A DNA stretch of 64,000 nucleotides from Candidatus Omnitrophota bacterium (GTDB lineage: Bacteria > Omnitrophota > Gorgyraeia > Pluralincolimonadales > Pluralincolimonadaceae), in assembly GCA_041653595.1 (NCBI GenBank), contig JBAZFB010000003.1, positions 64,346-128,345 of the forward strand, read 5' to 3'. Positions 1,794 through 20,924 of this stretch are shown piece by piece. The notes beneath the pieces are model-generated. The model was not told where the DNA came from, made no database searches, and was given only the letters and a program-made list of their open reading frames with translations. Within the stretch, counting starts at the first letter, position 1. Every line of letters starts with the position of its first letter. The position numbers and the translations under genes are program-made.

Positions 1794-1805
1794 AAGGAGA
1801 GAGCG

Positions 1806-3411: not shown

Positions 3412-3416
3412 ACATC

Positions 3417-7050: not shown

Positions 7051-8787
7051 ATGGCCCCGGAAAAAGAACAACAGTCTAAACAGGAAAAATTCAAGAAGAT
7101 AGGCCAGATGCTTCTCGAGAAAGGCCTTATAAATGACCATCAATTGGAACAGGCCCTCGAGGAACAGAAACTGACCGGTAAACTCCTGGGCCGGATCTTG
7201 ATCGATATGGGGCTGGTCAAAGAGGAGGATATCCTCCAGGTCCTCGGCGCGCGCTCAGGCTTCTCGGTAGCGAGGCTTAAGGGTACGAAGATCCCGAAGG
7301 AGGTCATCGACAAGGTCCCGGCCTCGGTCGCCAAGATATATACTATCATTCCCGTCGCCATCGACGGTAACCAGCTAACCGTCGCTATTGCCGATCCTCT
7401 GAATGTGGCTGCCTTCGACGACCTGCGGTTTACCCTCGGGATGAACATCAAGGGCGTCGTAGCCAGCGATGAGGAGATAAAAGAAGAGATACAGAAATAT
7501 TACGGATCCGAGGGAGAGACTATACAGGACGTCCTCGGCGTGTTCGGCGAAAAGATGGAACTCCTCCCGGTCGGCGAAGAAGCGACGGATATCTCCACGC
7601 TGCAGGAGCTCGCTTCCCGCGCCCCGGTCATAAAATTATTGAACATGATATTACTGCAGGGGGTCAAAGAGAAGGCCTCGGACATACATTTTGAGCCGTT
7701 CGAATCGGATTACAGGATAAGGTACAGGGTAGACGGCGTCCTCTATGAGGTGGCGCGGCCCCCGAAGAACTTGAGCCTCGGACTTTCGTCGAGGATAAAG
7801 GTCATGGCGAACCTCGATATAGCCGAACGCAGGCTTCCCCAGGACGGGCGCATCATGGTCACGATAGAAGGAAAGAGCGTCGACCTCAGGATTTCGACAT
7901 TGCCGACGATATTCGGAGAGAGCGTCGTCATGAGGGTGCTCGACAGGACGACTGTCAGCCTTTCGATCGACGATGTGGGGATGCTCGAGGATACAAAGAA
8001 GAGGATACGCACCCTGATCATCAAGCCCAACGGGATACTCCTCGCTACCGGCCCGACCGGTTGCGGCAAGACGACCACTTTGTACGGCTGCATGAAGGAG
8101 ATAAACAAGATAGAATATAAGGTCATCACGACCGAGGACCCTGTCGAGTACGACCTTAAAGGCGTAATACAGGTGCCGATAAACGCCAAGATCGGCCTTA
8201 CCTTCGCGACGTCGCTTCGCCACATCTTAAGGCAGGACCCGGATATAATCATGGTCGGCGAGATCCGCGACGCCGAGACCGCCCAGATAGCCATCCAGGC
8301 CTCGCTCACCGGACATCTCGTCTTCTCGACCATACATACCAATGACGCGGCAGGGACGATAACCAGGCTTATAGATATGGGCGTCGAGCCGTTCCTCGTG
8401 ACCTCGACGCTCGAGGCCGTACTTGCCCAACGCCTCGTCAGGAAGATATGCCAGTTCTGCAAAGAGGAATATACGCCCGAGCCGGAGATGCTATCCGACC
8501 TGGGGATAAAGCCTGAAGTCGCGAAGGGGAAGAAGTTCTACAGGGGAGCCGGCTGCGTAAAATGCAATAATTCCGGATATAAAGGAAGGACCGGCATATT
8601 TGAGCTCCTTATCCTTAACGACAAGCTCAGGGCCCTGATAATAGAGAAGGCCCATACCGCGTTGATAAAAGAGGCCGCCATAGAGGCCGGCATGAAGACC
8701 CTTCTTAACGACGGCCTTGAAAAGGTATTCCTCGGCGCCACTACGCTCGAGGAGGTCCTTAAAGAAGCCCAGACCGCGATCCTTTGA
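7051..8787 (+). CDS. gspE: Type II secretion/type IV pilus assembly ATPase, GspE/PilB family (paralog 2)
   Basis: Same architecture as upstream paralog: GspE_N domain, Walker A 'GPTGCGKTTT', 'CQFC...CVKC' zinc motif. Confidence 0.9.
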   Translation: MAPEKEQQSKQEKFKKIGQMLLEKGLINDHQLEQALEEQKLTGKLLGRILIDMGLVKEEDILQVLGARSGFSVARLKGTKIPKEVIDKVPASVAKIYTIIPVAIDGNQLTVAIADPLNVAAFDDLRFTLGMNIKGVVASDEEIKEEIQKYYGSEGETIQDVLGVFGEKMELLPVGEEATDISTLQELASRAPVIKLLNMILLQGVKEKASDIHFEPFESDYRIRYRVDGVLYEVARPPKNLSLGLSSRIKVMANLDIAERRLPQDGRIMVTIEGKSVDLRISTLPTIFGESVVMRVLDRTTVSLSIDDVGMLEDTKKRIRTLIIKPNGILLATGPTGCGKTTTLYGCMKEINKIEYKVITTEDPVEYDLKGVIQVPINAKIGLTFATSLRHILRQDPDIIMVGEIRDAETAQIAIQASLTGHLVFSTIHTNDAAGTITRLIDMGVEPFLVTSTLEAVLAQRLVRKICQFCKEEYTPEPEMLSDLGIKPEVAKGKKFYRGAGCVKCNNSGYKGRTGIFELLILNDKLRALIIEKAHTALIKEAAIEAGMKTLLNDGLEKVFLGATTLEEVLKEAQTAIL

Positions 8788-8842: not shown

Positions 8843-10111
8843 ATGGCAATATTCAATTACGTGGCTATCGACAAGGACGGGAAAGAGATAAAAGGCAGGC
8901 TCGAGGTCAACTCTAATGATGAGGTAGTGACCCAGCTCCGCCAAAAAGGGCTCTATCCGGTAAGCGTAAGCGAGGAGAAGTCGAAAACGCCCGCTGCCGG
9001 CGCGGCTAAAGACCTGCGTGAGGGCCCTGCCCCGGCTAATAAAGGATCTATACTGAATCTCTCGCTGGGAGGGGTCAGCCAGAAGCAGGTGACCGTTTTT
9101 ACGCGGCAGCTGGCTACACTTATCGGGTCAGGCCTTCCTCTTGTGCGCGCGCTTTACGTCCTTGAGCGCCAGGAGAAAGGGGCCCTGAAAACGACCATCC
9201 GCGGCCTGGCCGAACAGGTAGAAGGCGGCAGTTCTTTTTCCGAAGCGCTCTCGAAATATCCGAAGGCTTTTCCCCCGCTTTATGTAAACACGGTCAAGGC
9301 CGGCGAGACCGGCGGCGTCCTTGAAGTCGTCCTGACGCGCCTGGCTGAATTCGCCGAGAAGTCGCAGAAGCTGAACAGCAGGATAAAGGCCGCCCTTATC
9401 TATCCCGCCCTTGTCCTGACGTTGGCGCTTTCGGTCTTATTTTTCCTGATAACTTTCATTGTCCCGAAATTCATGCAGATATTCAAAGAGATGAACGTCG
9501 AACTGCCGGGTCCGACAAAGGTGCTCCTCTTCGTCAGCAGTTTGATGAAAGACAGATGGTTTGTCGGGCTAGGGATCATCATCTTTGTCATCGTGGTCTA
9601 TACGATATTGTCCAGGGTAGCGGCGACGAGGCTGGTGATCGACAGGATAAAATTGGAGCTTCCGGTAATGGGGCCGTTGATCCGCAGGATAGCCATCGCG
9701 CGTTTCTCGAGGACGCTGGGCACTTTGCTTTCGAGCGGCGTCCCCATCCTGCAGTCGCTTATGGTCGCAAAAGATACGACCGGTAACGAGGTCATGGCGC
9801 GCTCGATAGTCCATGTCCACGACAGCGTACGCGAGGGAGAGACTGTGGCCAAGCCGCTCTTAAAGGCCGGTTTGTTCCCGGCGATGGCCGTCAATATGAT
9901 ATCTGTCGGCGAAGAGACCGGCGCCCTCGACCAGATGCTCCTCAAGATCGCGGACGTCTATGATGAAGAGGTGGATGTCACGGTAACGGGCCTTATGTCG
10001 TTATTGGAACCTTTCTTGATTATCGGCATGGGCCTGATCGTCGGCTTTATAGTAGTTTCGATGTTCATGCCGCTCTTCAACCTCATAACCGCATTGGGAG
10101 GGAATGGTTAA
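8843..10111 (+). CDS. gspF: GspF/PilC-family inner-membrane platform protein
   Basis: Two T2SSF-type repeats with three TM segments; 'LATLIGSGLPLVRAL' and 'LGTLLSSGVPILQSL' paired motifs. Confidence 0.9.
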   Translation: MAIFNYVAIDKDGKEIKGRLEVNSNDEVVTQLRQKGLYPVSVSEEKSKTPAAGAAKDLREGPAPANKGSILNLSLGGVSQKQVTVFTRQLATLIGSGLPLVRALYVLERQEKGALKTTIRGLAEQVEGGSSFSEALSKYPKAFPPLYVNTVKAGETGGVLEVVLTRLAEFAEKSQKLNSRIKAALIYPALVLTLALSVLFFLITFIVPKFMQIFKEMNVELPGPTKVLLFVSSLMKDRWFVGLGIIIFVIVVYTILSRVAATRLVIDRIKLELPVMGPLIRRIAIARFSRTLGTLLSSGVPILQSLMVAKDTTGNEVMARSIVHVHDSVREGETVAKPLLKAGLFPAMAVNMISVGEETGALDQMLLKIADVYDEEVDVTVTGLMSLLEPFLIIGMGLIVGFIVVSMFMPLFNLITALGGNG

Positions 10112-10583
10112 AATGGAAAAACGCAAAAGCGGGTTTACGATAATAGAGTTGATAGTCGTCATGACGATCATCCTTATATTGGCGGGCCTCATAACCGGCG
10201 CCGCGCAGAAGGCGAAGCAGCAGGCTATGATAGCCAAAGCCAGGTCGATGATAGCAGGCATCGAAACCGCGCTGGGGATGTTCCAGGCGGATACCGGGAT
10301 CTATCCCGCTTCCGCTAATTTGTATACGAACCTTGTCAGTTCCGCGACCGGCCTTACGACCGTCCAGGCGCAGAATTGGTCCGGGCCTTACATGAATTTC
10401 CAGACGAATGAAATAAATACCACCGCCGGCACTATACTCGACCCCTGGAACAGCGCCTACCATTATACTAACACCGGTTCGGCCTCGCACGGTTACGATC
10501 ATTACATTGATATCTGGTCCAACGGCCCTAATAAAGTGGACAATAGCGGCGCGGGCGACGATATAACCAACTGGAAAAGATAG
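10104..10583 (+). CDS. gspG: Major pseudopilin/type IV pilin-like protein (GspG-like), prepilin-type N-terminal methylation domain
   Basis: 'KSGFTIIELIVVMTIILILAGL' class III signal with G-1/F+1/E+5. Confidence 0.8.
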   Translation: MVKMEKRKSGFTIIELIVVMTIILILAGLITGAAQKAKQQAMIAKARSMIAGIETALGMFQADTGIYPASANLYTNLVSSATGLTTVQAQNWSGPYMNFQTNEINTTAGTILDPWNSAYHYTNTGSASHGYDHYIDIWSNGPNKVDNSGAGDDITNWKR

Positions 10584-10595: not shown

Positions 10596-10949
10596 ATGAG
10601 AAAAGGTTTCACGTTAATAGAGATAGTCATATCGCTCGCGATACTCGCCATAGGGCTGGTGGGCATATTGTCTCTTTTCCCGATAGGCTTTGACTCGGCG
10701 AGGCGCTCGGTGAATTCCACGCAGGTAGCGGTCTTTGCCAATAAGCACCTCGAAGAGCTGCGGAACACCGGATTTCCTTCTTTAGGCGTCACGAGCGGGG
10801 ACTTCTCCGACCCGTCTTATACGTGGACGCAGAGCGTCTCAACCGTAGACGCGATCGACGCATTAAGGCAGGTAGACCTGACGGTAAGCTGGCAATATAG
10901 GAACAGGGGTTATCAACAGGTATTCACGACCTATGTGGCGACCAGATAG
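10596..10949 (+). CDS. Minor pseudopilin (GspI-like), prepilin-type N-terminal domain
   Basis: 'KGFTLIEIVISLAILAIGL' prepilin motif with E+5; ~117 aa size typical of GspI. Confidence 0.6.
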   Translation: MRKGFTLIEIVISLAILAIGLVGILSLFPIGFDSARRSVNSTQVAVFANKHLEELRNTGFPSLGVTSGDFSDPSYTWTQSVSTVDAIDALRQVDLTVSWQYRNRGYQQVFTTYVATR

Positions 10950-11697
10950 ATATATAAGAAGGAATAGCTCCGGCCTGACCTTGGTCGAGATCCTCGTCGT
11001 GGCCGTCATCTTCTCCATCCTCGTCACCTCCCTGTTTACGGTCTTCAGGGGCGGGCTCGATTCCTGGCGCAAGGCCGAGACGATCCTCGATATGTACCAG
11101 AACGCGAGGTTCGCGCTCGACATAATGGAGCGCGAAATATCCTCCGCCTATCTTTACCAGGAGAGCGCCAACACCGCCTATTGGACTAAATTTGAAGGTT
11201 ATCTCTCCGCGTCAGGCCTAAAGACCGGCTCCGCAGGCGGCGAGATATTTTTCGTCGCGCCGATAGCGAATAATCCGGGCAATAAGCAGGACCTCTGCGA
11301 AGTCGGATATTGGCTCAGGAACGATAACCGCCTCATGCACCATTTCGAGTATTTCGACGGAAGCGTAGTGCCGGTCGCCTATGATTTTTCGAAGAAAGCC
11401 GACGGCTCCGGCGATACGGGCGCCTCGGATGCCGCCATCGCAAGTAACGTCACGGCGCTTACCTTTACCTATTATTACAGGGGTACCGCCGGCGCCGCGC
11501 CGGCCGCGACCGTTACCAGTTGGAATTCGGGCCTTGACGCGCTTACCGGCGCCACCGAGAATTACGATTCCGGCGGCAACAAACTGATACCCGACGGCCT
11601 GCCCGACGCGGTGGGGATATCCATAACGCTGCAGAGCAGGGACGGCACGCAGACAAAGACCTTCACGGATTTCATAAGGGTCGTAGGTGCGAGATGA
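10933..11697 (+). CDS. Minor pseudopilin (GspJ-like), prepilin-type N-terminal domain
   Basis: 'SGLTLVEILVVAVIFSIL' prepilin motif with E+5; long leader, start codon uncertain. Confidence 0.55.
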   Translation: MWRPDRYIRRNSSGLTLVEILVVAVIFSILVTSLFTVFRGGLDSWRKAETILDMYQNARFALDIMEREISSAYLYQESANTAYWTKFEGYLSASGLKTGSAGGEIFFVAPIANNPGNKQDLCEVGYWLRNDNRLMHHFEYFDGSVVPVAYDFSKKADGSGDTGASDAAIASNVTALTFTYYYRGTAGAAPAATVTSWNSGLDALTGATENYDSGGNKLIPDGLPDAVGISITLQSRDGTQTKTFTDFIRVVGAR

Positions 11698-14672
11698 AAG
11701 AGACTAGCCCTAAATACAAAAAGAAGAGAGGCGTAGCCCTCATAATCTCGGTGGGCATCCTGGCGCTCATCGCGATGATAGCCACGAGCTTCGCCATAAA
11801 CATGCAGCTCGAGTATAGGGCCGCGGCGAATTTTATGTATTACACCGTAGCCAAAGAGCTGTCCGGCGCGGGCCTTGATAAGACGATCGCCGATATCCGA
11901 GCTTTGGCGGCAAACAACAGTTACGACGACGTCATGGCTGTCATAAATGCGTCTCCTTACGCCAACCCTGGGACCGAGGTAAATTTCGCGGGAGGGAGCT
12001 ATCAGGTCTATGTGGAGAGGGAGGACCAGAAGATAAACATAAACACCCTCGATGAGACCGATTATCCGTGGATAGATGAGTTGAAAAGCAAGGGCCTTTC
12101 ATACGATGACATCGCGAAGATGATCAATTATCGCGTTCCGGAGACGGAGTATAGCAGTATCACCTCTGTATTGACCGCCACCGGCCCGCAGTCCTGTAAC
12201 AGCGGCACCGTCCAGAAGCACGGGCCTTACGCAACAGTCGAAGAATTGCGACTTGTCCTTAACGACGACATCAAATATAATGCAATAAAAAACTTCGTTA
12301 CCGTCTATGCCCCGGTGATACCGGGAGGGCTTACCGGTAAGTATTACTCCCAACCCGATAATACGGTGTGGGATAAAAACTCGATCCTGGGCCTTGGTAA
12401 TTTTTGCGGAAAAGTCGTGGAATTTCGCGCCCTTAAAGAGGCGAAGGACTCCGGTTCAGCTCCCTGGCCTCCTTCCAATACATTCCCGGGCGCCGACGGA
12501 GATTGGAACGGATGGAGCGAGGCGCACGACGCGGAATTTGCCGGGGGCTATATAGCCGCTGACTGGACGTGGCGGTCAGGATTGGATTATTTCGGCGCGG
12601 TATTCACCGGATATATATACATACCTCAGGACAAGGTGAACCAGGATATAACCTTCAAGATGCGCAGCGAGAACGGCTGCAGGCTTTTTATAGACGGGAC
12701 GAAATTGATCGAGGATTGGACCGACAGGAACATGGGCGGCTGGCCGTCAGATAATGTCCTCGTCTCTCCGGCTGTTACCTTCAGCCGCGCCGGCTGGCAC
12801 CCAATAAGGATCGAATACTACAACAAAGACAACCAGAACACGGTCCAGCTTAAATGGGACGCCTACGGTTCTGACGATTACGTTCCGGCCGAATACTTCG
12901 GATATTATCCTTCTTCTTATTACGGGGATATCGCGGTCGACTCGAACCCGGTGACGACGCCTAAGACATACAGGGCCGCCTCCAGGCTCGGGACGGATTA
13001 TAACTCGGCCGGTATCCTGAAGATAGTCTCTACAGGGAAGACGAAAAAGAACGGAGTCGTCGTCGCCGAAAAGAAGACGACCTCGGTCATACAGGTATTT
13101 AATACCCTTACCCAATCTACCCGGGCCGAGTTTTGGGCACCCTGGTTCTCTCTCTACAACAATTTCAGCGACGGGGAGGTAAGGAACGTGACTTGGCTCG
13201 ATTCGTGTCCGACCAGCCAGGACGGTTTCGACGGCAGCAAGATGAATTGGGAGGGAAGTTATCAGAAAACCCCCGATTCCGTCAAGCTTGGATACTGGGA
13301 CAACTTCAACGATGATATTGCCTACACCGCGATAATATTGAAGGGGGGATATGTAACGAAGTTATTCGGTATAGCGTGGTGGGATTGGGATGTTCACACA
13401 TTTCCCAGCACCCATGAACACTGGCTTCCTAGAGGAAGAATAGACGGTGAAGATGCAACTGCTATAAATTGGGACGGCGATTATGTGTGGCCCTGCACTT
13501 TCGGCGATTTTTCCGTCCCGGAAGGGTTCAAGGAAGATGGCATTAATGGCACCTATTGCCTCAGAATGGATGTACCGGGATATTATTACGATGGATGCAC
13601 GGCTGAGGAAAGGCAAGCCGAATTAAACAGTTATTACTACAAAGCAGACTCGCCATTGGGCTACGATATCTTCGCCAGGTCTTATGTCTATGACAACGGA
13701 CAGAAGCAGACATGGGACAGCAACTGGCAACGGCCTCCAAGCCAGCGCTTGGCTAATCCGGGATATCCCGACCATATTCCATCATTTTTGACGGGGTATC
13801 TCATCCTCAAGACCGATCCGCCGTATACAGCTGACCATCAGACAAAACCCGGGGACGTTTATTATACTTTTGTCCAAAACGGTACCGACTGGTTCGGTTC
13901 CTCCGACCTGGATGCGAGCGTATTATATTGTCCGGGCAAGACAGACTCGTCAAGCGGCGCCTATTATTCCTGGGATGAGGATGCGCAACAGACGCAGTAC
14001 TACATATTAGCGGCGATAGGGGTGGGAACCACCTATCAGGCTTATTATTCCTATACTACCGAGAGTGGTTCCGGTTGGGTCACCACGGGAGCATCCGGAA
14101 CCGGCAGCGCGTCCAAAGCAGGTGTCGTAGCGTTTAGGGCAAACAATATATATTATGTCGATCTCGACTTATTCTGGCAGGGGACCCCCCCCTACACCAA
14201 TGAAGCATTCGTCGATATGGTATACGACAGGACCGACGGGATAACCGATAATAACCCCAGATATATAGGCAGCACCAGCGAATGCGTGACCGACTTCGAC
14301 AATGTCAGGGTCATATATCCAAAGGGCTATATCGTATCTGCGTCGCTTATAGCTAAACCTCCTTTGGACAACTCCAATATAATATGGGATACGATAACGT
14401 GGAATGACGCGAATCCGAATCCGGCCGGTACCTCGATAACGATGTATGCCAGGGCGGCAGACAGCCTTTCCACAACCGATGACTTCTCGACTGAATATGC
14501 GAAGGGGGACTCGATATCATCCCTTTCAGGAGGCAGGTTCCAGTATAAGGCTTTATTGATCACGTCCGCGTTGAACCCTAATGACTATTCGGCCAGCAGC
14601 TCCACGCCTGTCCTGAAGGGCGTCACCGTGATGTACCACCGGCCGAAAGCCCGGGTATTCTACCAGCAGTAG
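11694..14672 (+). CDS. Giant GspK-like pseudopilin (992 aa) with internal PA14 domain
   Basis: N-terminal 'KRGVALIISVGILALIAMIATSF' hydrophobic segment lacking E+5 (GspK hallmark), 'KININTL' and HhH-like 'GPYATVEELRLVLN' GspK motifs; PA14-like block 'FTGYIYIPQ...FKMRSENGCRLFIDG...WHPIRIEYYN...VQLKW' around nt 12470-12880. Confidence 0.6.
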   Translation: MKETSPKYKKKRGVALIISVGILALIAMIATSFAINMQLEYRAAANFMYYTVAKELSGAGLDKTIADIRALAANNSYDDVMAVINASPYANPGTEVNFAGGSYQVYVEREDQKININTLDETDYPWIDELKSKGLSYDDIAKMINYRVPETEYSSITSVLTATGPQSCNSGTVQKHGPYATVEELRLVLNDDIKYNAIKNFVTVYAPVIPGGLTGKYYSQPDNTVWDKNSILGLGNFCGKVVEFRALKEAKDSGSAPWPPSNTFPGADGDWNGWSEAHDAEFAGGYIAADWTWRSGLDYFGAVFTGYIYIPQDKVNQDITFKMRSENGCRLFIDGTKLIEDWTDRNMGGWPSDNVLVSPAVTFSRAGWHPIRIEYYNKDNQNTVQLKWDAYGSDDYVPAEYFGYYPSSYYGDIAVDSNPVTTPKTYRAASRLGTDYNSAGILKIVSTGKTKKNGVVVAEKKTTSVIQVFNTLTQSTRAEFWAPWFSLYNNFSDGEVRNVTWLDSCPTSQDGFDGSKMNWEGSYQKTPDSVKLGYWDNFNDDIAYTAIILKGGYVTKLFGIAWWDWDVHTFPSTHEHWLPRGRIDGEDATAINWDGDYVWPCTFGDFSVPEGFKEDGINGTYCLRMDVPGYYYDGCTAEERQAELNSYYYKADSPLGYDIFARSYVYDNGQKQTWDSNWQRPPSQRLANPGYPDHIPSFLTGYLILKTDPPYTADHQTKPGDVYYTFVQNGTDWFGSSDLDASVLYCPGKTDSSSGAYYSWDEDAQQTQYYILAAIGVGTTYQAYYSYTTESGSGWVTTGASGTGSASKAGVVAFRANNIYYVDLDLFWQGTPPYTNEAFVDMVYDRTDGITDNNPRYIGSTSECVTDFDNVRVIYPKGYIVSASLIAKPPLDNSNIIWDTITWNDANPNPAGTSITMYARAADSLSTTDDFSTEYAKGDSISSLSGGRFQYKALLITSALNPNDYSASSSTPVLKGVTVMYHRPKARVFYQQ

Positions 14673-14682
14673 GGATAACAAT

Positions 14683-15555
14683 ATGAAAAAAATAATCGCG
14701 TTCTCCGTCATCCTGTTTTTAAGCTTATGCCTGCGGGCCTCTGCCGCTCCCGGGGATAAATACGCGATAAGGGTGCCGGGGGACTGTAAGACCATCAGGG
14801 AAGCGTGCGAAAAGTCCTTTCCGGGAGATACCATATACATAGGCGCAGGCGAATACACGGAGAAAGAGGGATTTACCGTTAAGAGTAATATCAAGCTTGT
14901 CGGGCAGGGCGCAGACAAGACCCTTATTAAACTGGGGAAGAGCGGATTATCCATAATCTCGACGCGCGGTAGCGTGAATAATGTCGCCATAAAAGACCTC
15001 TCCATTGAGGTGAACGGGCAGCCCTTAAGAGTGGGCGGCGTCGACAGTTTTCTTTTAAAGGACTGTGTCTTAATAAGCAGGAACCTGTCTACCTGCATAG
15101 AGGTCAGCGGCGTAAAGAACGCGCAGATATTGAACTGCAATATAGTGAACGCAAGTTACGGCCTGATGCTTTGGGGCGGGCCGATCGAGCTTGCCGTAAG
15201 GAATTCGGTCTTTTACAACAATAAGGTCGGTATCTGCTCCGCCAAACTTCCGCCGCAGGGGAATCCCCGGGACCTGCCTAAAGAATATCTGGAAGAATAT
15301 TATAATAAGCCGCGCGAGGACATCAACCTTACGCTTGCCTATAACCTTTTTTATAACGTAAAGGATTTTATTGATTGCCGGAAAGGGGAGAAGGACGTAT
15401 TGCTTGATCCCAGGTTCGCGAATGCCGCGAAAGACGATTTTCACCTTAGGGGAGATTCCCCTTGTGTTGATGGCGGCGACCCGGACGCCAAGTATAACGA
15501 CCCAGACGGCTCAAGAAACGACATCGGGGCTCTTCCATTTGCCGGAAAGAAATAA
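14683..15555 (+). CDS. Secreted right-handed parallel beta-helix repeat protein (pectin-lyase-fold)
   Basis: Signal peptide 'MKKIIAFSVILFLSLCLRASA'; repetitive 'N..I.D..I' beta-helix rungs; C-terminal 'DFHLRGDSPCVDGGDP' region common in beta-helix secreted proteins. Confidence 0.6.
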   Translation: MKKIIAFSVILFLSLCLRASAAPGDKYAIRVPGDCKTIREACEKSFPGDTIYIGAGEYTEKEGFTVKSNIKLVGQGADKTLIKLGKSGLSIISTRGSVNNVAIKDLSIEVNGQPLRVGGVDSFLLKDCVLISRNLSTCIEVSGVKNAQILNCNIVNASYGLMLWGGPIELAVRNSVFYNNKVGICSAKLPPQGNPRDLPKEYLEEYYNKPREDINLTLAYNLFYNVKDFIDCRKGEKDVLLDPRFANAAKDDFHLRGDSPCVDGGDPDAKYNDPDGSRNDIGALPFAGKK

Positions 15556-15557
15556 AA

Positions 15558-15584
15558 TTGCCGGAAGAATTATTTTTTTATAAT
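15558..15584 (+). promoter_or_regulatory. Candidate promoter upstream of second GspK-like gene (TTGCCG-15-TATAAT)
   Basis: -35-like TTGCCG 15558-15563 and TATAAT 15579-15584 within AT-rich 55-bp gap; spacer 15 nt is suboptimal. Confidence 0.3.
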
Positions 15585-15610
15585 AGCTACCCTCGCGGGC
15601 ATACGAGAAA

Positions 15611-18097
15611 ATGAAAATAAGAATAAGAAAAAATAACAAGGGTATCGCTCTCATAGTGACGGTCGGCGTCCTCGCGATGATGCTGATAATCGGGACGTCT
15701 TTCACCATCAATATGATGGCCGATCGCAGGTCGTCGGTGAATATGGCGATGGCGGCGCAGGCCAGGGCCGCGGCAGAAGCGGGATTGAATATCGCTATCG
15801 TCTCGGCGAGGAACCTGGCCGTCAGCGATTTCAACGGCGTGCCTGCCGCTACCATGAGCGGCTCTCTCGGGAACGTGGGGAGAGGGAATACCGCCGCCTA
15901 TTCCGTCAATATAACCGATACCGCGAGCCAGCTCAACGTAAACGACACAAATCCCGGGCTGGAAGATATGCTCGAAAGCCTTGTTGCCATACTGGGAAGC
16001 CCTCTTCAGGCCGGCGACGGGACCGCGATCATTTCATACCGCGCGACCCTCACTGACGGAGTTTATATCACGAAGGAACAGGTTATCAACGCGTTTTCCG
16101 GCGCAACCTCCGTAAAACAGGGCAAGTTCAACAAGATAGCGGAATATATAACGGTAAATGGTTATATTGACGAGAACAGCGAGGATCCTACGGCCTCGTC
16201 TTTAACCGGCCTGGATAATCCTGATTCGACTTACCAGCGCAAGGCGCCGGTAAATATAAATATCACCGACGCTAAAATTCTGAGGGCTGTTTTAGCATCT
16301 GTAATTACGCCGACGGATCCTGCCACGTTAGCCGGTGATATTATTACAAGAAGGAACGCGAATTTCTTTACCAGTTGGAATGATTTTGACGGTTTTATAG
16401 ACGGGCTTGGTTACCTGACCGCCGCTGAAAAAATAAAGATAAAAAATAACGCGAACCCGAACAAAGTAAAAGTCGATAACGCGGGAGCCTCTCTCTCTTA
16501 TACAACCGATTTCTGCTTCCATCCCGGCGGCGTTTACGAGATAACATCTACCGGGACGGCCGGGGCGGCACAGAAACGGATAACCGCTCCGGTGCGGATA
16601 TACGATGTCATAAATTACACGACGAAAGAACAATTCAGGGGGAATACTTACACAACCGCTTACGTAAACGACGGCACTATGCCGGCTTTTAAGAACGTGA
16701 ACTGGCTTAACAGCTGTCCGGTTATCTCAAGTTACGACCCTGGATTGACGGTCGCTACGCCCGACTATAGCGCTAACGCCGTCGCCAATTCCCTTAAACT
16801 GGGTTTCTGGGATAACTTCGACGAAGATAATGATAATGTCAATAAAGTGGGCTGGAGCTGGTCTAATTGGGCAGATTCCCTGGCCAACGATATAGCCATC
16901 ACCGATGTCAATCCAGTAGATCCCAGCCGTAGTAATCAGCCTGACTTAAGGGACGGTGATAATGAATTAAGCGATACCGCATACGTTGGAGAGACAGCAT
17001 TAGCTCATATAGACCTGCAGGGCAGTCAAAGCGGCCAATGGCATTGCGGGCAGGAATTTTCCTTCAGGGTCTATTGTAACATACTTAAAAATCCTCCAAG
17101 TCAGGTATACTACCCTCCTTTTGAAAATTTTTATAGCGCTACTGACCGGTGGGAAGGTTATGAGGATACAGAGCAGATCGACTTTGTTTCCGCGGGGCCT
17201 ACGGGCAAGTTGTATATCAATAATTTCCGCTGTATGTACTATGGGTCCTACGGGTATCAACAAAGCATTGACGGAATTTCCGGCATGGCTCCGCCCGACG
17301 ATTTTGCGGATTCCTTGCTGAGATTAACTTTCCCCGGCGGAGGCGGAGACCATTATATGCATTTAAACGGTTTGTATAATGGGATAGGAGGGTTGTCTGC
17401 GCCCGGTACGTTAAAACCGGCGGATGCGAACAGGGTCGTTCCTGTTAATGCTGCTTTCAAATTAATTGTGCGCGGGTCGGGGGCCAATAATTATCAGGTT
17501 CATACGGCAATCTCTCCTACCGGGATAGCTTATCACGAATGGGATTCAGGCGACGGAGGGAACTGGGGCTCGTGGTGGTGGCAGATCCATTATCTTACCT
17601 ACTACGCCTATGATGGATTCTATCATCAACTTGTAGATACGGGGGAAACTGATAGATATAATTATGTGCGGCACGACGCGGGGAATCAATTTATCTACAC
17701 CGACTGGTTTTTGAGGTTGATAAATCATCCGTCGACTACGATGGGACGTTACGCTCTGTTTGACGATGTCCGCCTCATCCCCGACCAGGGCTATTACATC
17801 TCTCCCGCGTCCGCCACGGCCGGCCCCGCTCGCTTCGGTACCGCGTCGTGGACGTTGACCATTCCGCCGGGCGCAGCCACGAACGAAAGGGCCACGGTGG
17901 AAATTTCCGGGGACGGGGGGACCAACTATAGTCCCGTCGGTATTAACAGTGGGGTGAGTATCACCCCTTCGACGAGCATACGCTTCAAAGTCACTTTATT
18001 GTCGGACGACCCGCAGCATTTACAGACGCCTGTCCTTGAGGACATTACCCTTACCCGTTTGCCAAAGGCGGCGGTCTTATATTGCAAATATGAGTAA
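15611..18097 (+). CDS. Giant GspK-like pseudopilin paralog (828 aa)
   Basis: N-terminus 'NKGIALIVTVGVLAMMLIIGTSF' without E+5, 'QLNVNDT' motif; shares 'NV.WL.SCP...KLG.WDNF.DD' and C-terminal 'TPVL' blocks with the 11694-14672 protein. Confidence 0.55.
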   Translation: MKIRIRKNNKGIALIVTVGVLAMMLIIGTSFTINMMADRRSSVNMAMAAQARAAAEAGLNIAIVSARNLAVSDFNGVPAATMSGSLGNVGRGNTAAYSVNITDTASQLNVNDTNPGLEDMLESLVAILGSPLQAGDGTAIISYRATLTDGVYITKEQVINAFSGATSVKQGKFNKIAEYITVNGYIDENSEDPTASSLTGLDNPDSTYQRKAPVNINITDAKILRAVLASVITPTDPATLAGDIITRRNANFFTSWNDFDGFIDGLGYLTAAEKIKIKNNANPNKVKVDNAGASLSYTTDFCFHPGGVYEITSTGTAGAAQKRITAPVRIYDVINYTTKEQFRGNTYTTAYVNDGTMPAFKNVNWLNSCPVISSYDPGLTVATPDYSANAVANSLKLGFWDNFDEDNDNVNKVGWSWSNWADSLANDIAITDVNPVDPSRSNQPDLRDGDNELSDTAYVGETALAHIDLQGSQSGQWHCGQEFSFRVYCNILKNPPSQVYYPPFENFYSATDRWEGYEDTEQIDFVSAGPTGKLYINNFRCMYYGSYGYQQSIDGISGMAPPDDFADSLLRLTFPGGGGDHYMHLNGLYNGIGGLSAPGTLKPADANRVVPVNAAFKLIVRGSGANNYQVHTAISPTGIAYHEWDSGDGGNWGSWWWQIHYLTYYAYDGFYHQLVDTGETDRYNYVRHDAGNQFIYTDWFLRLINHPSTTMGRYALFDDVRLIPDQGYYISPASATAGPARFGTASWTLTIPPGAATNERATVEISGDGGTNYSPVGINSGVSITPSTSIRFKVTLLSDDPQHLQTPVLEDITLTRLPKAAVLYCKYE

Positions 18098-18116
18098 AAG
18101 GAGAAAAAAGAATAAA

Positions 18117-19196
18117 ATGAGACAGGTGTTTCCCGTATTTTTTTTGATGTTCTTTTTGGCCGCGGCTTTTCCGGCCACGGCAGCCGATGTTAACCGGACG
18201 GAAGCGGCCAATGAACCCGCAGGCCATGCGGACGCCTTCGCCGAATTCAGTAAAAGATTTTCGGAGATAAAGGCAGGCGATGCCGAGGCTTATTATAATT
18301 TGGCGGTGTTCTGTATCGATAACGATCTCCCTGGACAGGCGGAATACCTGCTCGGGGAAGCGGCAAAAACCCCCGACTTTGAAAAAAAGGCGAAAAGGCT
18401 TCTGGAAGTGCTTACCGGCGAACCGGACAAAGTTTTGTATGAAGCCGCGTTCAAACATTATGAATCGGGATATCTCGCGGAGGCCAAAACAGAAGTCGAA
18501 ATGCTGAAAATCGTTTATCCCCAAAGCAATTATACTCGTAAAGCCAGGTTACTTTTGAGAAATATAAACAGTGAGGTGGTTGATAAACCCTATCTTTTGG
18601 TGAACTCCGCTGATCCCAGTAAAATTATCGCTTCCTTGAGTCAGAGGGCGGAAAAAGAGAAACGTAATGTGGAGGATCTGAAAAAAGAGTATTTTACGGA
18701 TATCCTCAAGAAGGCGGAGTATTTCGCTGACACCCTGGTGGCCAAAGCACCTTCCGATGAGAAAAAGGAAGAATATTTGTTCTATGCGATAAAATGCGCG
18801 GAAGAAGTATACAGATTGTCGGATGATGCGGAACTTAAGAGCAAGGCCGAAGACATGAGAAGCAAGATCACTAAACGGGTATTTACCGAGCGACCGGTAT
18901 CTGCAAATTTGAAAAATATAGACATGCATTATGAGAATTTATATCTGGTCAAAGACAGCGGCCTTATCGAGGATACTTGCGGTAAATATATTAAGGAAGG
19001 CGAGGCATATTTAAAGAAAGCCCGGGAGGCCTCGGGCGACGGGAAAATAAGCGATCTCGTCAGCGCTTATAAATGTTTTTCGTTTGCTAATGCCTATACC
19101 AAGTCCGAGAAGCTGAAAGAGGAGACTTTTAGAAAGATGAAGCTTATTAGCCTCGAAAAAAGGAAGGAGATAAGCAAGAAGAAAACGTCAAATTAG
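18117..19196 (+). CDS. Secreted hypothetical protein, helical/TPR-like
   Basis: Signal peptide 'MRQVFPVFFLMFFLAAAFPATAA' after AAAGGAG RBS; Lys/Glu-rich helical repeats; ORF-track start 18036 would overlap upstream gene so 18117 preferred. Confidence 0.5.
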   Translation: MRQVFPVFFLMFFLAAAFPATAADVNRTEAANEPAGHADAFAEFSKRFSEIKAGDAEAYYNLAVFCIDNDLPGQAEYLLGEAAKTPDFEKKAKRLLEVLTGEPDKVLYEAAFKHYESGYLAEAKTEVEMLKIVYPQSNYTRKARLLLRNINSEVVDKPYLLVNSADPSKIIASLSQRAEKEKRNVEDLKKEYFTDILKKAEYFADTLVAKAPSDEKKEEYLFYAIKCAEEVYRLSDDAELKSKAEDMRSKITKRVFTERPVSANLKNIDMHYENLYLVKDSGLIEDTCGKYIKEGEAYLKKAREASGDGKISDLVSAYKCFSFANAYTKSEKLKEETFRKMKLISLEKRKEISKKKTSN

Positions 19197-19274: not shown

Positions 19275-20924
19275 ATGGGAAAACGTGCTCTAGGGATCGA
19301 TATAGGCGCGGGCTCGGTAAAACTCGTAGAGCTGGAAAAGACGGCCGAAGGTATTCAGCTCATCCGGGCGAAATTTTTTGACTTGACCCAATATGCCGAC
19401 CAGGAAAAAAGGGACACCCTTATAAGGGAAGGCATAGAGGGGTTGTTGAGAACAGAAAAGATAAAGAGCGGCAGGCTCGCGCTCTCCCTCTCGGGCCAGT
19501 CGGTATTCATCCGCTTCCTCAAGCTCCCCAAGATCCAGCAAGGCAAGATAGACAAGATAATAAAATACGAAGCGCAGCAGCAGATCCCTTTCCCCCTCGA
19601 TAAGATAAGCTGGGACCACCAGATCTTCCGCTCCGGCGCGGGCCCGGAAGAGGACGTCCTTTTCGTCGCCGCGAAAAAAGAGATTGTCGAAACTACGCTT
19701 TCGCACGTAGCGAGGACCAACCTGGACATAGAGTTCGTCGATGTCAGCCCTCTGGCCCTCCTTAATTCCATAACTTATAATGAGCCCCTCGGCAAGGGGC
19801 TGATCCTTGATATCGGCGCCAAGGCGACCAATCTTATCGTCATATCGGACAAGGGGTTCTGGGTCCGTTCAATACTTATCGCCGGCGACGAGATGACCCA
19901 TGCGATCGCCTCAAAGTTAAATATACCTTTCGACAAGGCGGAGGAGCTTAAGCGCAAAGAGGGGATGGTGGTCGCGTCAGACAGCCTTGTTCCCTCGAAC
20001 ATCACCCCGGAGGGCAAAGACCTCGTTAATGCCCTGAACCCGGTCGTCTCCGACCTGATATCTTCGATCGTCCAGTCGATGGAATTTTACAAGACCAAAC
20101 ATGCCCGCGATACCGCCTTCAACGAGATCATATTATCGGGCGGCGGCTCAAAGCTCAAGGGCATAGAGGATTTCCTGGCGAAGGGGCTTGGCATGCAGAT
20201 AAGGCGCGCCAACCTGGGCCAGAAGATAAAATGCCCGTCCAACCTCAGGGTCGATATAGATTTTCAGACGCGCTTCGGCTCTTCGATCGGCCTGGCCCTG
20301 CGCCTGCTCCAGAGGTGCCCGACCAATATAGACCTGTTGCCGGCCGAGAGGAAAGAGGAAAGGGATTTCAAAAAAGAAAAATTCTGGATAATCTCCGCGG
20401 GCCTCCTTATTGCCGTAATACCGCTCACGATAGGGTATAATATCTGGTTCCAGACGTCGACCCTGAGGAAGGAAGTGGCCTTCCTGGATTCGCTTTTGTC
20501 GGATTACGAGAACATCAACAAGGGAATAGCCAAGCTTAAGGAAGATATCAAGAACAGCGAGGCCAGGCTGGAACCCTTTGAAAATCTGGCCATAAAGAAA
20601 AGCCTCTCTCTTGAGGCCATATTGGAGATAAGGAAGCTCCTGCCCGAAGAGACCTGGCTGACGTCGGTGGCCAAGGACAAGGACCTTTTCTCGGTTGAGG
20701 GCAGGACGACCTCGAGCCTCCTGACCATCAACGTTTTCAAGAACAGGCTCGCATCCTCGCCGTTATTCGATTCGGTAGAGATAATATACGCGAGCCTGCC
20801 CCGCCAGACCGAAGAGGGCGCGGGACAATTCAGGGATTTTTCCATAAAGTTCAGGTTCAAGGGGACCGGCGCGGCTGCGGCGGCCCCGAAGGGCGAGAAG
20901 GACGAAACGAAAGGCAAGAAATAG
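19275..20924 (+). CDS. PilM-like actin-fold ATPase fused to a PilN/GspL-like membrane/periplasmic segment
   Basis: 'LGIDIGAGSVKLVELEK' PilM N-terminus with actin-like fold, then TM 'FWIISAGLLIAVIPLTIGYNIWF' and coiled-coil/periplasmic tail; 549 aa (PilM alone is ~350). Confidence 0.7.
   Translation: MGKRALGIDIGAGSVKLVELEKTAEGIQLIRAKFFDLTQYADQEKRDTLIREGIEGLLRTEKIKSGRLALSLSGQSVFIRFLKLPKIQQGKIDKIIKYEAQQQIPFPLDKISWDHQIFRSGAGPEEDVLFVAAKKEIVETTLSHVARTNLDIEFVDVSPLALLNSITYNEPLGKGLILDIGAKATNLIVISDKGFWVRSILIAGDEMTHAIASKLNIPFDKAEELKRKEGMVVASDSLVPSNITPEGKDLVNALNPVVSDLISSIVQSMEFYKTKHARDTAFNEIILSGGGSKLKGIEDFLAKGLGMQIRRANLGQKIKCPSNLRVDIDFQTRFGSSIGLALRLLQRCPTNIDLLPAERKEERDFKKEKFWIISAGLLIAVIPLTIGYNIWFQTSTLRKEVAFLDSLLSDYENINKGIAKLKEDIKNSEARLEPFENLAIKKSLSLEAILEIRKLLPEETWLTSVAKDKDLFSVEGRTTSSLLTINVFKNRLASSPLFDSVEIIYASLPRQTEEGAGQFRDFSIKFRFKGTGAAAAAPKGEKDETKGKK

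What the first reader, a model, noticed from the sequence alone, without database searches (positions are those of the whole stretch)
11694..18097. Two paralogous giant GspK-like tip pseudopilins, one with a PA14 lectin-type domain
GspK is normally about 330 aa and caps the pseudopilus. Here two proteins of 992 aa and 828 aa begin like GspK. Both have the N-terminal hydrophobic segment lacking Glu+5, and the first carries the 'KININTL' motif and an HhH-like 'VEELRLVLN' motif. Both then continue with very large extensions. The first contains a recognisable PA14 block ('FTGYIYIPQ...RLFIDG...IRIEYYN...LKW', about nt 12470-12880). PA14 domains typically bind carbohydrates. The two proteins share internal blocks ('NV.WL.SCP', 'KLG.WDNF.DD', C-terminal 'TPVL'), so they are paralogs. 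A pseudopilus tip fused to a lectin or adhesin domain would make the fibre itself an adhesive organelle.
Basis: partly seen in the sequence, partly recalled or inferred. Interest (0 to 1): 0.8.

Follow-up and report, generated by a model that had tools for sequence, protein, structure and literature searches.

The report
Giant lectin-bearing GspK-type pilus caps
Two neighbouring genes of an uncultured Omnitrophota nanobacterium encode tip subunits of a pilus or secretion fibre that are three times the normal size and carry sugar-binding-type domains, so the fibre tip is probably a recognition or attachment device, though this has not been tested.

Summary
ORFs 11694-14672 (992 aa, "A") and 15611-18097 (828 aa, "B") are real, conserved genes in a type-4-filament operon of a Candidatus Omnitrophota genome.

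- **Pilin signal.** Both have a prepilin-type N-terminus without Glu5. The G-, I- and J-like pilins upstream keep Glu5.
- **GspK fold.** The AlphaFold model of B matches three solved GspK structures best (TM 0.55-0.66). A matches XcpX more weakly. A and B are homologous over their whole length (hhalign E 1.7e-66).
- **PA14.** A carries a true PA14 domain (Pfam 39.1 bits against a cutoff of 24; 26 of 26 relatives). It sits where B has its second helical subdomain.
- **Extension.** Both continue into a variable concanavalin-A-like β-sandwich, seen only by fold prediction, and a conserved C-terminal module of about 110 aa.
- **Distribution.** The extension defines at least 853 protein clusters. 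All 44 genome hits are Omnitrophota-labelled or unclassified MAGs.
- **Companions.** A is usually followed by an exported β-helix protein, and B by an exported helical-repeat protein. Some genomes also have satellite H-I-J-K cassettes whose caps carry other carbohydrate-binding modules.

Best reading: alternative modular cap pilins that display glycan-recognition modules.

Caveats: tip location and binding are inferred, and the canonical PA14 Asp-Asp sugar/Ca motif is E-N here.

Pilins with PA14 modules were already noted in a 2021 survey, so this is a new variant of a known kind.

The parts
5340..7049 (+). Assembly ATPase 1 (PilB/GspE type, with MshEN domain)
   Evidence: Pfam T2SSE 471 bits plus MshEN. 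NCBIfam PilB 629 and GspE 622 bits, both just under their cutoffs.
7051..8787 (+). Assembly ATPase 2 (GspE type, with an MshE-type c-di-GMP-binding motif)
   Evidence: NCBIfam GspE 649.5 bits, above the cutoff of 630.25. NF053729 c-di-GMP motif 66.8 bits, above the cutoff of 38.
8843..10111 (+). GspF/PilC platform protein
   Evidence: Pfam T2SSF, two copies. NCBIfam GspF 410 bits.
10104..10583 (+). GspG-type major (pseudo)pilin, with Glu5
   Evidence: Pfam T2SSG 52 bits plus N_methyl. N-terminus G|FTIIE.
10596..10949 (+). GspI-like minor pilin, with Glu5
   Evidence: N_methyl 30.8 bits. Weak hits to GspI, XpsI and Verru_Chthon cassette B. N-terminus G|FTLIE.
10933..11697 (+). GspJ-like minor pilin, with Glu5
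   Evidence: N_methyl 28.5 bits. Weak hits to GspJ, HpsC and Verru_Chthon cassette C. N-terminus G|LTLVE.
11694..14672 (+). Protein A: 992-aa GspK-class cap pilin with PA14, a ConA-like domain and a C-terminal module
   Evidence: The AF2 model has pLDDT 76.9 and pTM 0.78.
11694..12299 (+). A aa 1-202: leader (cleavage after G13), alpha1 helix without Glu5, first pilin strands, 'KININTL', first HhH subdomain
   Evidence: Secondary structure of the model. NCBIfam GspK aa 12-70, 40.5 bits, below the cutoff. Foldseek to XcpX 9a1f_T, E 7.6e-4. The PDB profile touches 3ci0_K over profile positions 142-200, E 0.17.
12300..12953 (+). A aa 203-420: PA14 domain, in the place of B's second helical subdomain
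12999..13328 (+). A aa 436-545: second half of the pilin beta-sheet plus the conserved NVTWLDSCP and KLGYWDNF blocks
   Evidence: The most conserved region, 57% mean pairwise identity. Aligned with B aa 303-406.
13329..14288 (+). A aa 546-865: variable beta-rich region, predicted ConA-like lectin/glucanase sandwich
14289..14669 (+). A aa 866-992: conserved C-terminal beta module (FDNVRVI...TPVL.GVT)
   Evidence: Aligned with B aa 717-824. 44% identity in the family. Recurs as repeats in proteins of 1.2-5.1 kaa. No Pfam or PDB sequence match.
14683..15555 (+). Exported 290-aa right-handed beta-helix protein, the companion of A
   Evidence: Signal peptide visible in the sequence. Pfam Beta_helix 25.6 bits, just under the cutoff of 25.9. 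Directly follows the A-type gene in 15 related loci.
15611..18097 (+). Protein B: 828-aa GspK-class cap pilin with a ConA-like domain and the C-terminal module
   Evidence: AF2 model pLDDT 72.4. Top Foldseek PDB hits are GspK/XcpX. Twenty of 24 family members hit Pfam T2SSK. NCBI names homologues GspK.
15611..16840 (+). B aa 1-410: complete GspK-like module (alpha1 without Glu5, two helical HhH subdomains, pilin sheet, NVNWLNSCP and KLGFWDNF blocks)
   Evidence: Foldseek alignments of 319-352 columns to GspK chains of 259-295 aa, TM 0.55-0.66. Secondary structure. ComEA HhH hit at E 1e-3.
16841..17752 (+). B aa 411-714: variable beta-rich region, predicted L-type-lectin/ConA-like
   Evidence: Foldseek probability 0.96-0.97 to VIP36, Emp47p, legume-lectin-like and calreticulin globular domains, with weak E-values of 4e-3 to 2e-2. 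36% identity in the family. Much of the region has low pLDDT.
17753..18094 (+). B aa 715-828: conserved C-terminal beta module
18111..19196 (+). Exported helical-repeat (TPR-like) protein of about 360 aa, the companion of B
   Evidence: Signal peptide in the sequence. Weak YfiO and TPR hits. Homologues follow each B-type gene and are duplicated together with it.
19275..20924 (+). PilM-PilN fusion
   Evidence: Pfam PilM_2 119 bits plus PilN. TIGR01175 142 bits, above the cutoff of 133. Amuc_1101-like.
20928..22366 (+). PilO-like (Amuc_1100-like) gene and a PilP-position gene
   Evidence: NCBIfam Amuc_1100 family, weak. Pfam Amuc_1100 on the homologues in L003 and L004. The 'PilP' label rests on gene position only.
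22372..25732 (+). TPR/STN-like protein followed by two tandem half-size secretins
   Evidence: Pfam Secretin 134 and 148 bits, each with one Secretin_N domain. TPR and weak STN hits on the first gene.

Best explanation
A and B are alternative cap subunits (GspK class) of one type-4 filament. The filament is built by the surrounding Omnitrophota machine, a hybrid of T2SS and type IVa pilus parts.

**Proposed steps**
1. Each protein is made as a prepilin, anchored in the inner membrane by its N-terminal helix, and cleaved after the conserved Gly.
2. With the GspI- and GspJ-like pilins it nucleates the filament. It ends up at the distal end, because it lacks Glu5 and its bulk leaves no room for a subunit above it.
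3. GspG-type subunits polymerise underneath, driven by the two ATPases.
4. This pushes the cap, with its carbohydrate-recognition-type modules, towards or through the secretin. A carries PA14 plus a variable ConA-like sandwich. B carries a ConA-like sandwich only.
5. The tip then recognises or holds a glycan-rich ligand, most plausibly the surface of a host or prey cell, or a polysaccharide.
6. The variable middle domain sets specificity.
7. The exported companion proteins (beta-helix after A, helical-repeat protein after B) act with their own cap as partner, chaperone or cargo.

**Shown**
- Domain identities and paralogy.
- Absence of Glu5.
- Operon context.
- Conservation, and where the variability lies.
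- The existence of several cap genes per genome.

**Inferred**
- Processing of the prepilins.
- Tip location and surface exposure.
- Ligand binding.
- The role of the companions.
For: **GspK class**
- Prepilin-type N-termini without Glu5, while G, I and J keep it.
- The B model's best solved matches are XcpX and GspK, TM 0.55-0.66.
- A matches XcpX at E 7.6e-4.
- A and B align at hhalign E 1.7e-66.
- Twenty of 24 B relatives hit Pfam T2SSK.
- The gene order is G-I-J-K.

**Carbohydrate-type modules**
- PA14 by Pfam, by PDB profile and by fold.
- Distant relatives carry Laminin_G_3 above its cutoff.
- Satellite caps show weak Laminin_G_3 and CBM_4_9 hits.

**Specificity region.** The middle domain is the least conserved and varies in length. 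Extension-profile hits typically match only the two ends of the extension.

**Alternative tips**
- One to three cap genes per operon.
- Separate H-I-J-K cassettes in genomes that also hold a full operon.

**Precedents**
- Modular pilins, including lectin and PA14 architectures, and GspK described as a modular pilin (PMC8179133).
- The glycan-binding PilC at the tip of the S. sanguinis pilus (PMC9934059).
- Interchangeable minor-pilin tips in predatory Myxococcus (PMC12075869).
- Type IVa pilus clusters counted as symbiosis or predation traits in Omnitrophota (PMC10066038).
Against: - No experiment or complex model places these proteins at a tip or outside the cell.
- The window proteins score far below the NCBIfam GspK cutoff (40.5 and 27.4 bits against 130). 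They do not hit Pfam T2SSK themselves.
- The PA14 Asp-Asp position is E-N here, and is DD in only 9 of 26 relatives.
- The ConA-like call rests on predicted structure alone. Sequence comparison to a Laminin_G_3 relative aligned only the pilin part. That fold is also shared by GH16 and PL7 enzymes, so the domain could be catalytic.
- Parts of the B extension have low pLDDT.
- A mature cap of about 980 residues must pass secretins that are only half the usual size here.
- No GspH, prepilin peptidase or PilT gene lies in the window.
- Both paralogues lack Glu5, so how they share one I-J pair is unknown.
Confidence: 0.6

Rival explanations
1. Secretion piston with a cargo-binding tip. The machine is a true T2SS whose short pseudopilus never leaves the periplasm. 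The lectin-type modules of A and B grip glycosylated or polysaccharide cargo, or the co-encoded exported beta-helix and helical-repeat proteins, and push it through the secretin.
For: - The major subunit is GspG type.
- ATPase 2 passes the GspE cutoff.
- No PilT gene lies in the window operon.
- Each cap gene is followed by a Sec-exported protein.
- The J-like protein weakly resembles the polysaccharide-secretion pseudopilin HpsC.
Against: - The alignment complex is PilM/N/O type, not GspC/L/M.
- Some related B-only operons include a PilT-size ATPase, which implies an extending and retracting pilus.
- Several variable caps per genome fit recognition of diverse external targets better than recognition of a fixed cargo.
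Confidence: 0.2
2. Membrane-anchored enzymes or receptors that are not filament subunits. The pilin-like helix serves only as an inner-membrane anchor. The PA14 and ConA-like/glucanase-like parts work in the periplasm on polysaccharide, for example in cell-wall or exopolysaccharide processing.
For: - The ConA-like fold is shared with GH16 glucanases and PL7 lyases.
- PA14 also occurs in glycosidases.
- Scores are below the GspK family cutoffs.
Against: - The complete GspK fold, including the helical insert, is retained in B.
- The position right after I and J is strictly conserved in dozens of loci.
- Satellite cassettes keep H-I-J together with the cap.
- The Gly-1 and no-Glu5 signature is conserved.
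Confidence: 0.1
3. DNA-receptor tip of a competence pilus. The helix-hairpin-helix subdomains bind DNA, as in ComEA or the ComZ tip protein of Thermus.
For: - The B-family profile hits the ComEA HhH region at E 1e-3.
- Several relatives hit Pfam HHH_3.
- JGI names one homologue 'ComE-like'.
Against: - HhH/SAM-like subdomains are a normal part of GspK (Pfam T2SSK and T2SSK_1st hits), and no DNA role is known for them.
- This reading does not explain the PA14 or ConA-like modules.
- No ComEC, ComF or DprA gene was seen in the operon.
Confidence: 0.05

Closest known systems
GspK/XcpX, the cap minor pseudopilin of type II secretion systems (PDB 3CI0, 5VTM, 9A1F)
   Same: - Prepilin N-terminus without Glu5.
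- Pilin fold with a helical HhH insert.
- Gene placed after GspI and GspJ.
- Best structural match of B, and a significant match of A.
   Different: - 2.5 to 3 times larger.
- A C-terminal extension of about 500 aa (ConA-like domain plus C-terminal module) that GspK lacks.
- In A, half of the helical insert is replaced by PA14.
- Two or three paralogues per operon.
- Below the NCBIfam GspK cutoff.
- The machine uses PilM/N/O.
Modular type IV pilins: S. sanguinis PilC (pilin + Ig + ConA-like lectin) and PilB (pilin + vWA). Surveyed in PMC8179133 and PMC9934059
   Same: - A pilin module displays a grafted binding module.
- A lectin of the ConA superfamily sits at a tip complex.
- The survey lists PA14 (IPR011658) and PF13385 among the frequent architectures.
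   Different: - Those pilin modules are small and are not GspK type.
- Their modules are appended through a linker, not inserted.
- They come from monoderm hosts.
- Binding has been shown experimentally there, but not here.
Thermus thermophilus ComZ and ETEC CofB (large tip minor pilins), as summarised in PMC8179133 and PMC6048534
   Same: - An oversized minor pilin with an extra beta domain. In ComZ the domain is inserted into the pilin sheet. In CofB it is a C-terminal lectin-like domain.
- CofB works with a co-encoded secreted partner (CofJ), which resembles the cap-plus-companion pairs seen here.
   Different: - Different extra folds (beta-solenoid; beta-repeat with H-type-lectin-like domain).
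- No PA14.
- No detectable sequence relation was found here.
PilY1/PilC tip adhesins of type IVa pili
   Same: A protein of about 100 kDa displayed at the pilus tip together with the H-I-J-K-type minor pilins. This shows that bulky tips are feasible.
   Different: PilY1 is not a pilin. It has no class III signal and docks on the minor pilins. Here the bulk is part of the K-type pilin itself.
Interchangeable minor-pilin 'Tips' of the Myxococcus Kil (Tad) pilus (PMC12075869)
   Same: Several alternative tip sets per genome expose variable domains, in a predator.
   Different: - That is a Tad/Flp system with unrelated proteins.
- Function was shown genetically there.
Verru_Chthon cassette proteins A-D (TIGR02600, TIGR02598, TIGR02599, TIGR02596)
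   Same: A PVC-group cassette of pilin-like proteins with one very large member (model length 1296). There are weak N-terminal hits to A, I and J.
   Different: Scores are far below the cutoffs (20.9 against 332 for A). The hit covers only the N-terminal helix.

Membership tests
GspK (T2SS cap minor pseudopilin) | Class III (prepilin) signal: short basic leader ending in Gly, followed by a hydrophobic helix | tested here: met
   A reads KKKRG|VALIISVGILALIAMIATSF. B reads KNNKG|IALIVTVGVLAMMLIIGTSF. The signal is conserved in both family consensus sequences.
GspK (T2SS cap minor pseudopilin) | No Glu at +5, unlike the other pilins of the system | tested here: met
   A has Ile5 and B has Val5. 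G, I and J have Glu5.
GspK (T2SS cap minor pseudopilin) | Pilin fold with a helical (two HhH/SAM-like) domain inserted in the beta-sheet | tested here: met
   B: Foldseek TM 0.66, 0.62 and 0.55 to 9a1f_T, 5vtm_X and 3ci0_K, probability 1.0. A: 9a1f_T at E 7.6e-4, TM 0.46. In A only the first helical subdomain is kept; PA14 takes the place of the second.
GspK (T2SS cap minor pseudopilin) | Score above the curated family thresholds (NCBIfam NF037980; Pfam PF03934) | tested here: not met
   NF037980 scores 40.5 bits for A and 27.4 bits for B against a cutoff of 130. Neither window protein hits PF03934 at E<=1. Twenty of 24 B-family members do hit PF03934 at E<0.01, and P0030-P0032 pass its cutoff.
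GspK (T2SS cap minor pseudopilin) | Gene follows gspI and gspJ in the operon | tested here: met
   The order is G, I, J, A, (beta-helix), B. The same order holds in related loci.
GspK (T2SS cap minor pseudopilin) | Forms the I-J-K heterotrimer and caps the filament | not testable with these tools
   Only monomer prediction was available.
PA14 domain (PF07691) | Profile score above the gathering threshold | tested here: met
   39.1 bits against 24. All 26 relatives hit it. The family profile hits RsgI3 PA14 at E 1e-22.
PA14 domain (PF07691) | PA14 beta-barrel fold | tested here: met
PA14 lectins (Flo5, Epa1, MpIBP type) | Asp-Asp (DcisD) Ca2+/sugar-binding motif just before the '...G.RL.iDG' strand. 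The equivalence of this position rests on my own knowledge of those structures plus the RsgI3 alignment. | tested here: not met
   The window protein has E326-N327. The position is DD in 9 of 26 family members, all from the more distant branches.
PA14 lectins (Flo5, Epa1, MpIBP type) | Binds carbohydrate | not testable with these tools
   Needs glycan arrays or ITC.
Modular type IV pilins (sense of PMC8179133) | An N-terminal pilin module plus at least one extra domain not specific to filament biology | tested here: met
   Pilin/GspK module plus PA14 (Pfam) plus a ConA-like domain (fold prediction).
Concanavalin A-like lectin/glucanase superfamily | Jelly-roll beta-sandwich fold | tested here: inconclusive
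Verru_Chthon cassette protein A (TIGR02600) | Score above the family cutoff | tested here: not met
   20.9 bits against 332.3, covering aa 13-76 only.
PilY1/PilC tip adhesin | Non-pilin protein with a PilY1-type C-terminal domain | tested here: not met
   A and B have prepilin N-termini. No PilY1/PilC family appeared in the Pfam or NCBIfam scans.

The most novel reading that the evidence does not exclude
Omnitrophota nanobacteria determine which cells they attach to, and so their host or prey range, with a kit of interchangeable giant GspK-type caps. Each cap has its own glycan-recognition module (PA14, ConA-like, CBM-like) and its own exported partner protein. The caps are loaded onto one c-di-GMP-controlled type-4-filament machine from the main operon or from satellite H-I-J-K cassettes. 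The beta-helix partner of the PA14 cap would be a depolymerase delivered at the contact site.
Probability: 0.25. Interest if true: 0.75.

Novelty: new variant of a known kind. Interest (0 to 1): 0.55.

Why it matters
Omnitrophota are uncultured, ultra-small bacteria thought to live as predators or parasites. Their type IV pilus clusters have been counted as symbiosis markers, but the tip proteins were never examined (PMC10066038).

If these caps are the contact device, they give concrete, expressible candidates for host recognition: the PA14 domain and the variable ConA-like domain. Their sequence variation could be mapped onto host range.

For the type-4-filament field, this would show that the GspK cap itself can be rebuilt into a large multi-domain adhesin. 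A binding domain is inserted into the helical cap domain, and a second one is appended. This extends the modular-pilin concept to the K subunit of diderm systems, and it offers an alternative to the non-pilin PilY1 solution.

Tried and rejected
- **Single-sequence searches of A and B against PDB.** They gave nothing useful. The A-family profile reached GspK 3ci0_K only at E 0.17. The GspK assignment therefore rests on fold search and on the B family.
- **Verru_Chthon cassette protein A.** Considered and rejected: 20.9 bits against a cutoff of 332.
- **Sequence-level support for the ConA-like middle domain.** A profile comparison with the Laminin_G_3-bearing relative P0031 aligned only the pilin part.
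- **C-terminal module profile against PDB.** No significant hit. There was also no Pfam hit.
- **Literature search with 'PA14'.** It was swamped by the P. aeruginosa strain of that name. A search for 'Omnitrophota' plus 'pseudopilin' found no paper.
- **T2SS-like loci next to Omnitrophota giant genes.** The loci reported in 10.1101/2023.11.21.568195 and 10.64898/2026.06.07.730766 are described with rcpC/Tad-type components and concern other proteins. I did not treat them as prior description of this feature.
- **PilT, prepilin peptidase or GspH elsewhere in the window.** The ten candidate ORFs scanned downstream of the operon were housekeeping genes or had no Pfam hit. No PilT or prepilin peptidase was among them.

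Full report
**Source and setting**

The best database match of the 992-aa protein is 95% identical and is named [quoted passage not shown]. All named genomes that hold relatives are Omnitrophota, or MAGs with placeholder labels.

The two ORFs lie in a long plus-strand operon:

| Coordinates | Gene |
|---|---|
| 5340-7049, 7051-8787 | Two full-length PilB/GspE ATPases with MshEN domains |
| 8843-10111 | GspF |
| 10104-10583 | GspG-type major subunit |
| 10596-10949 | GspI-like pilin |
| 10933-11697 | GspJ-like pilin |
| 11694-14672 | Protein A |
| 14683-15555 | Exported beta-helix protein |
| 15611-18097 | Protein B |
| 18111-19196 | Exported helical-repeat protein |
| 19275-20924 | PilM-PilN fusion |
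| 20928-22366 | PilO-like gene and a PilP-position gene |
| 22372-23499 | TPR/STN-like protein |
| 23496-25732 | Two half-size secretins |

The ten candidate ORFs scanned downstream of the operon were housekeeping genes or had no Pfam hit. None was a PilT or a prepilin peptidase.

**Checking the observation**

- The ORF coordinates and lengths are exact.
- Both proteins begin with a short basic leader ending in Gly, followed by a hydrophobic helix. Position +5 is Ile in A and Val in B. The G-, I- and J-like pilins read FTIIE, FTLIE and LTLVE.
- 'KININTL' (aa 113-119), 'VEELRLVLN' (aa 182-190) and the PA14 block are present.
- The shared blocks NV.WL.SCP, KLG.WDNF and TPVL are aligned by BLASTP in three colinear segments, E 4e-13, 1e-9 and 1e-3.
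- With family profiles the two proteins align over 694 columns at E 1.7e-66.

**What the domains are**

*PA14*
- Pfam scores 39.1 bits against a gathering score of 24.
- All 26 aligned relatives hit PA14.
- The family profile finds the tandem PA14 structures of the clostridial anti-sigma factor RsgI3 at E 1e-22.
- The AlphaFold model (pLDDT 76.9, pTM 0.78) matches PA14 domains of RsgI3, yeast flocculins and Epa adhesins, and the Marinomonas ice-binding adhesin.

*GspK*
- Direct sequence evidence for the window proteins is weak. NCBIfam GspK scores 40.5 and 27.4 bits against a cutoff of 130, and there is no Pfam T2SSK hit.
- The model of B (pLDDT 72.4) has as its best solved matches the three available GspK/XcpX structures, TM 0.55-0.66 over 319-352 columns.
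- Twenty of 24 B relatives hit Pfam T2SSK.
- NCBI and JGI already name several of those relatives GspK or PulK.
- A matches XcpX at E 7.6e-4, and it is homologous to B.

*Where PA14 sits*
- B has two helical subdomains between the first and second halves of the pilin sheet: helices 117-179 and 221-281.
- A keeps the first (helices 124-198). It then has PA14 at about aa 203-420, before the sheet resumes at aa 441.
- In the profile alignment this stretch of A has no counterpart in B.
- PA14 therefore stands in place of the second half of the GspK cap domain. By analogy with solved GspK complexes, that places it at the distal face. This last step is inference.

*The extension*
- After a strongly conserved block (A aa 436-545, B aa 301-410, 57-59% mean identity) comes a beta-rich region. 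It is the least conserved part (28% identity in A, 36% in B) and varies from about 210 to 410 residues.
- For B, Foldseek gives probability 0.96-0.97 to VIP36, Emp47p and legume-lectin-like domains, but with weak E-values. Parts of this region have low confidence.
- No sequence profile confirms the assignment in the window proteins.
- Distant relatives with T2SSK do carry Laminin_G_3 above its threshold.
- The last 110 aa or so form a conserved module without any Pfam or PDB sequence match. It recurs three to six times in very long proteins, one of them from Pirellulales.

*The PA14 sugar site*
- PA14 lectins use an Asp-Asp pair for Ca2+ and sugar. The position equivalence is from my knowledge of Flo5, Epa1 and MpIBP, and matches the DDG of RsgI3.
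- At that position the window protein has E326-N327.
- Only 9 of 26 relatives, the more distant ones, have DD.
- Carbohydrate binding by this PA14 is therefore not something the sequence supports directly.

**Distribution and neighbourhood**

A profile of the extension alone, scored against 1.84 billion representative proteins, gave these counts:

| E-value threshold | Clusters |
|---|---|
| <= 1e-3 | 853 |
| <= 1e-10 | 239 |
| <= 1e-30 | 88 |

Most hits are 650-1050 aa, with the match starting at residue 270-450. That is always behind an N-terminal part the size of GspK.

A scan of one genome per species with the pattern KLG[YF]WD[ND]F gave 44 confirmed loci. Mapping the window's proteins onto 49 loci showed four arrangements:

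1. The window's order, with A, beta-helix, B and helical-repeat protein. In some loci there is a second B plus helical-repeat pair (L001, L002, L009, L010; confirmed by hhalign E 9e-255).
2. A, usually with the beta-helix gene, as the only cap.
3. B-type caps only. Four of these loci have an extra ATPase gene; in L004 it is PilT-size (355 aa).
4. Satellite cassettes without machine genes, in genomes that also hold a full operon.

One satellite cassette (L037) reads as follows:
- GspH, I, J;
- a PA14 cap, then two genes of about 350-400 aa;
- a 1041-aa K-like protein with a weak Laminin_G_3 hit, then a 355-aa gene;
- a 1027-aa K-like protein with a weak CBM_4_9 hit.

The beta-helix gene follows the A-type gene in 15 loci (47% identity in L003). 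The helical-repeat gene follows B-type genes. Both companions have Sec signal peptides.

**Mechanism**

The best-supported reading is that A and B are alternative GspK-class caps. They nucleate the filament with I and J, and so display PA14 and ConA-like modules at its end.

- The variable middle domain would set ligand specificity.
- The exported companions would act as cap-specific partners, comparable to CofJ with the CofB tip pilin (PMC6048534).
- The lifestyle context fits. Omnitrophota are ultra-small, probably predatory or parasitic, and nearly all encode type IVa pilus clusters (PMC10066038).
- A predator with interchangeable pilus tips is documented in Myxococcus (PMC12075869).
- The size is not prohibitive in principle, since the equally large PilY1 is displayed at pilus tips (abstract of 10.64898/2026.09.18.752573).

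*Shown*
- Folds, homology and absence of Glu5.
- Gene order.
- Conservation pattern.
- Multiplicity of caps per genome.

*Inferred*
- Prepilin processing.
- Tip location and exposure.
- Binding.
- The role of the partners.

*Rivals*
- A non-exposed T2SS piston whose tip binds cargo (0.2).
- Membrane-anchored enzymes that merely use a pilin-like anchor (0.1).
- A DNA-receptor tip (0.05).

**Comparison with what is known**

The concept is established. Raynaud et al. (PMC8179133) defined modular pilins and found more than 1,200 of them in 264 architectures. They listed PF13385 and the PA14 domain IPR011658 among the frequent modules, and noted that GspK itself is modular. Shahin et al. (PMC9934059) showed glycan binding by the ConA-like module of S. 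sanguinis PilC in a tip complex.

What I found no description of:
- A phylum-wide family in which the K-type cap itself carries a conserved extension of about 500 aa.
- PA14 inserted into the cap's helical domain.
- Tandem and satellite paralogues with cognate exported partners.

The Omnitrophota papers do not discuss minor pilins. By family thresholds the window proteins are not GspK equivalogs. By fold, signal and gene context they are GspK-class. I therefore rate this a new variant of a known kind.

**Verdict**

The functional claim, an adhesive fibre tip, is plausible but untested. It is weakened slightly by the degenerate PA14 sugar motif and by the fold-only evidence for the second lectin-like domain. 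Interest is moderate to good (0.55).

Noticed in passing
window 23496-24617 and 24614-25732 (with 22372-23499): Two tandem half-size secretins (373 and 372 aa), each with a single Secretin_N domain. They are preceded by a TPR protein with a weak STN-like hit. This suggests a heteromeric or split secretin. The arrangement is conserved in many related loci.
   Followed up: partly
window 5340-7049 and 7051-8787: Two adjacent full-length PilB/GspE ATPases, both with MshEN domains. The second passes the NCBIfam MshE-type c-di-GMP-binding motif model, so assembly may be controlled by c-di-GMP.
   Followed up: partly
window 19275-20924 and 20928-21689: The PilM-PilN fusion resembles the Amuc_1101 family, and the next gene resembles the Amuc_1100 family. 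The machine therefore belongs to the same broad PVC-type pilus cluster as Akkermansia Amuc_1098-1102.
   Followed up: no
window 14683-15555: An exported 290-aa right-handed beta-helix protein (pectate-lyase/NosD-like, just under the Pfam threshold) lies between the two caps. It follows the PA14 cap in 15 related loci. In L003 it carries an extra C-terminal domain of about 270 aa.
   Followed up: partly
window 18111-19196; L001 16316-17491 and 20271-21434: An exported helical-repeat (TPR-like) protein of about 360-400 aa follows every B-type cap and is duplicated together with it. This suggests a cap-specific partner or chaperone.
   Followed up: partly
L037 770-14880 (Omnitrophica UBA6215); also L025, L028, L046: Satellite cassettes without machine genes: GspH, I, J, a PA14 cap, then two further K-like proteins of about 1030 aa with weak Laminin_G_3 and CBM_4_9 hits. 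Each cap is followed by one or two genes of about 350-400 aa. These cassettes occur in genomes that also hold a complete operon.
   Followed up: partly
window 14289-14669 and 17753-18094; P0113, P0118, P0177: The conserved C-terminal module of about 110 aa (…RVI…WG.ISW…QYK…TPVL.DIT.TY) has no Pfam or PDB sequence match. It recurs 2-6 times in proteins of 1.2-5.1 kaa, one of them annotated from Pirellulales. It is probably an undescribed beta-sandwich domain.
   Followed up: partly
L004 2129-3196; also L023, L030, L033: B-only operons contain a third ATPase gene between the two long ATPases. In L004 it is PilT-size (355 aa). The window-type operons have none. The two operon types may therefore differ in their ability to retract.
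   Followed up: no
window 154-5350; L001 and L003 upstream regions: The upstream genes (TsaD, MgtC, a bactofilin/HTH protein, LarB-like AIRC, LarC-like Ni_insertion) are syntenic with the operon even at 39-55% protein identity.
   Followed up: no
window 40827-42854 and 53569-54645: Two ORFs of 675 and 358 aa gave no Pfam hit at E<=1e-4.
   Followed up: no
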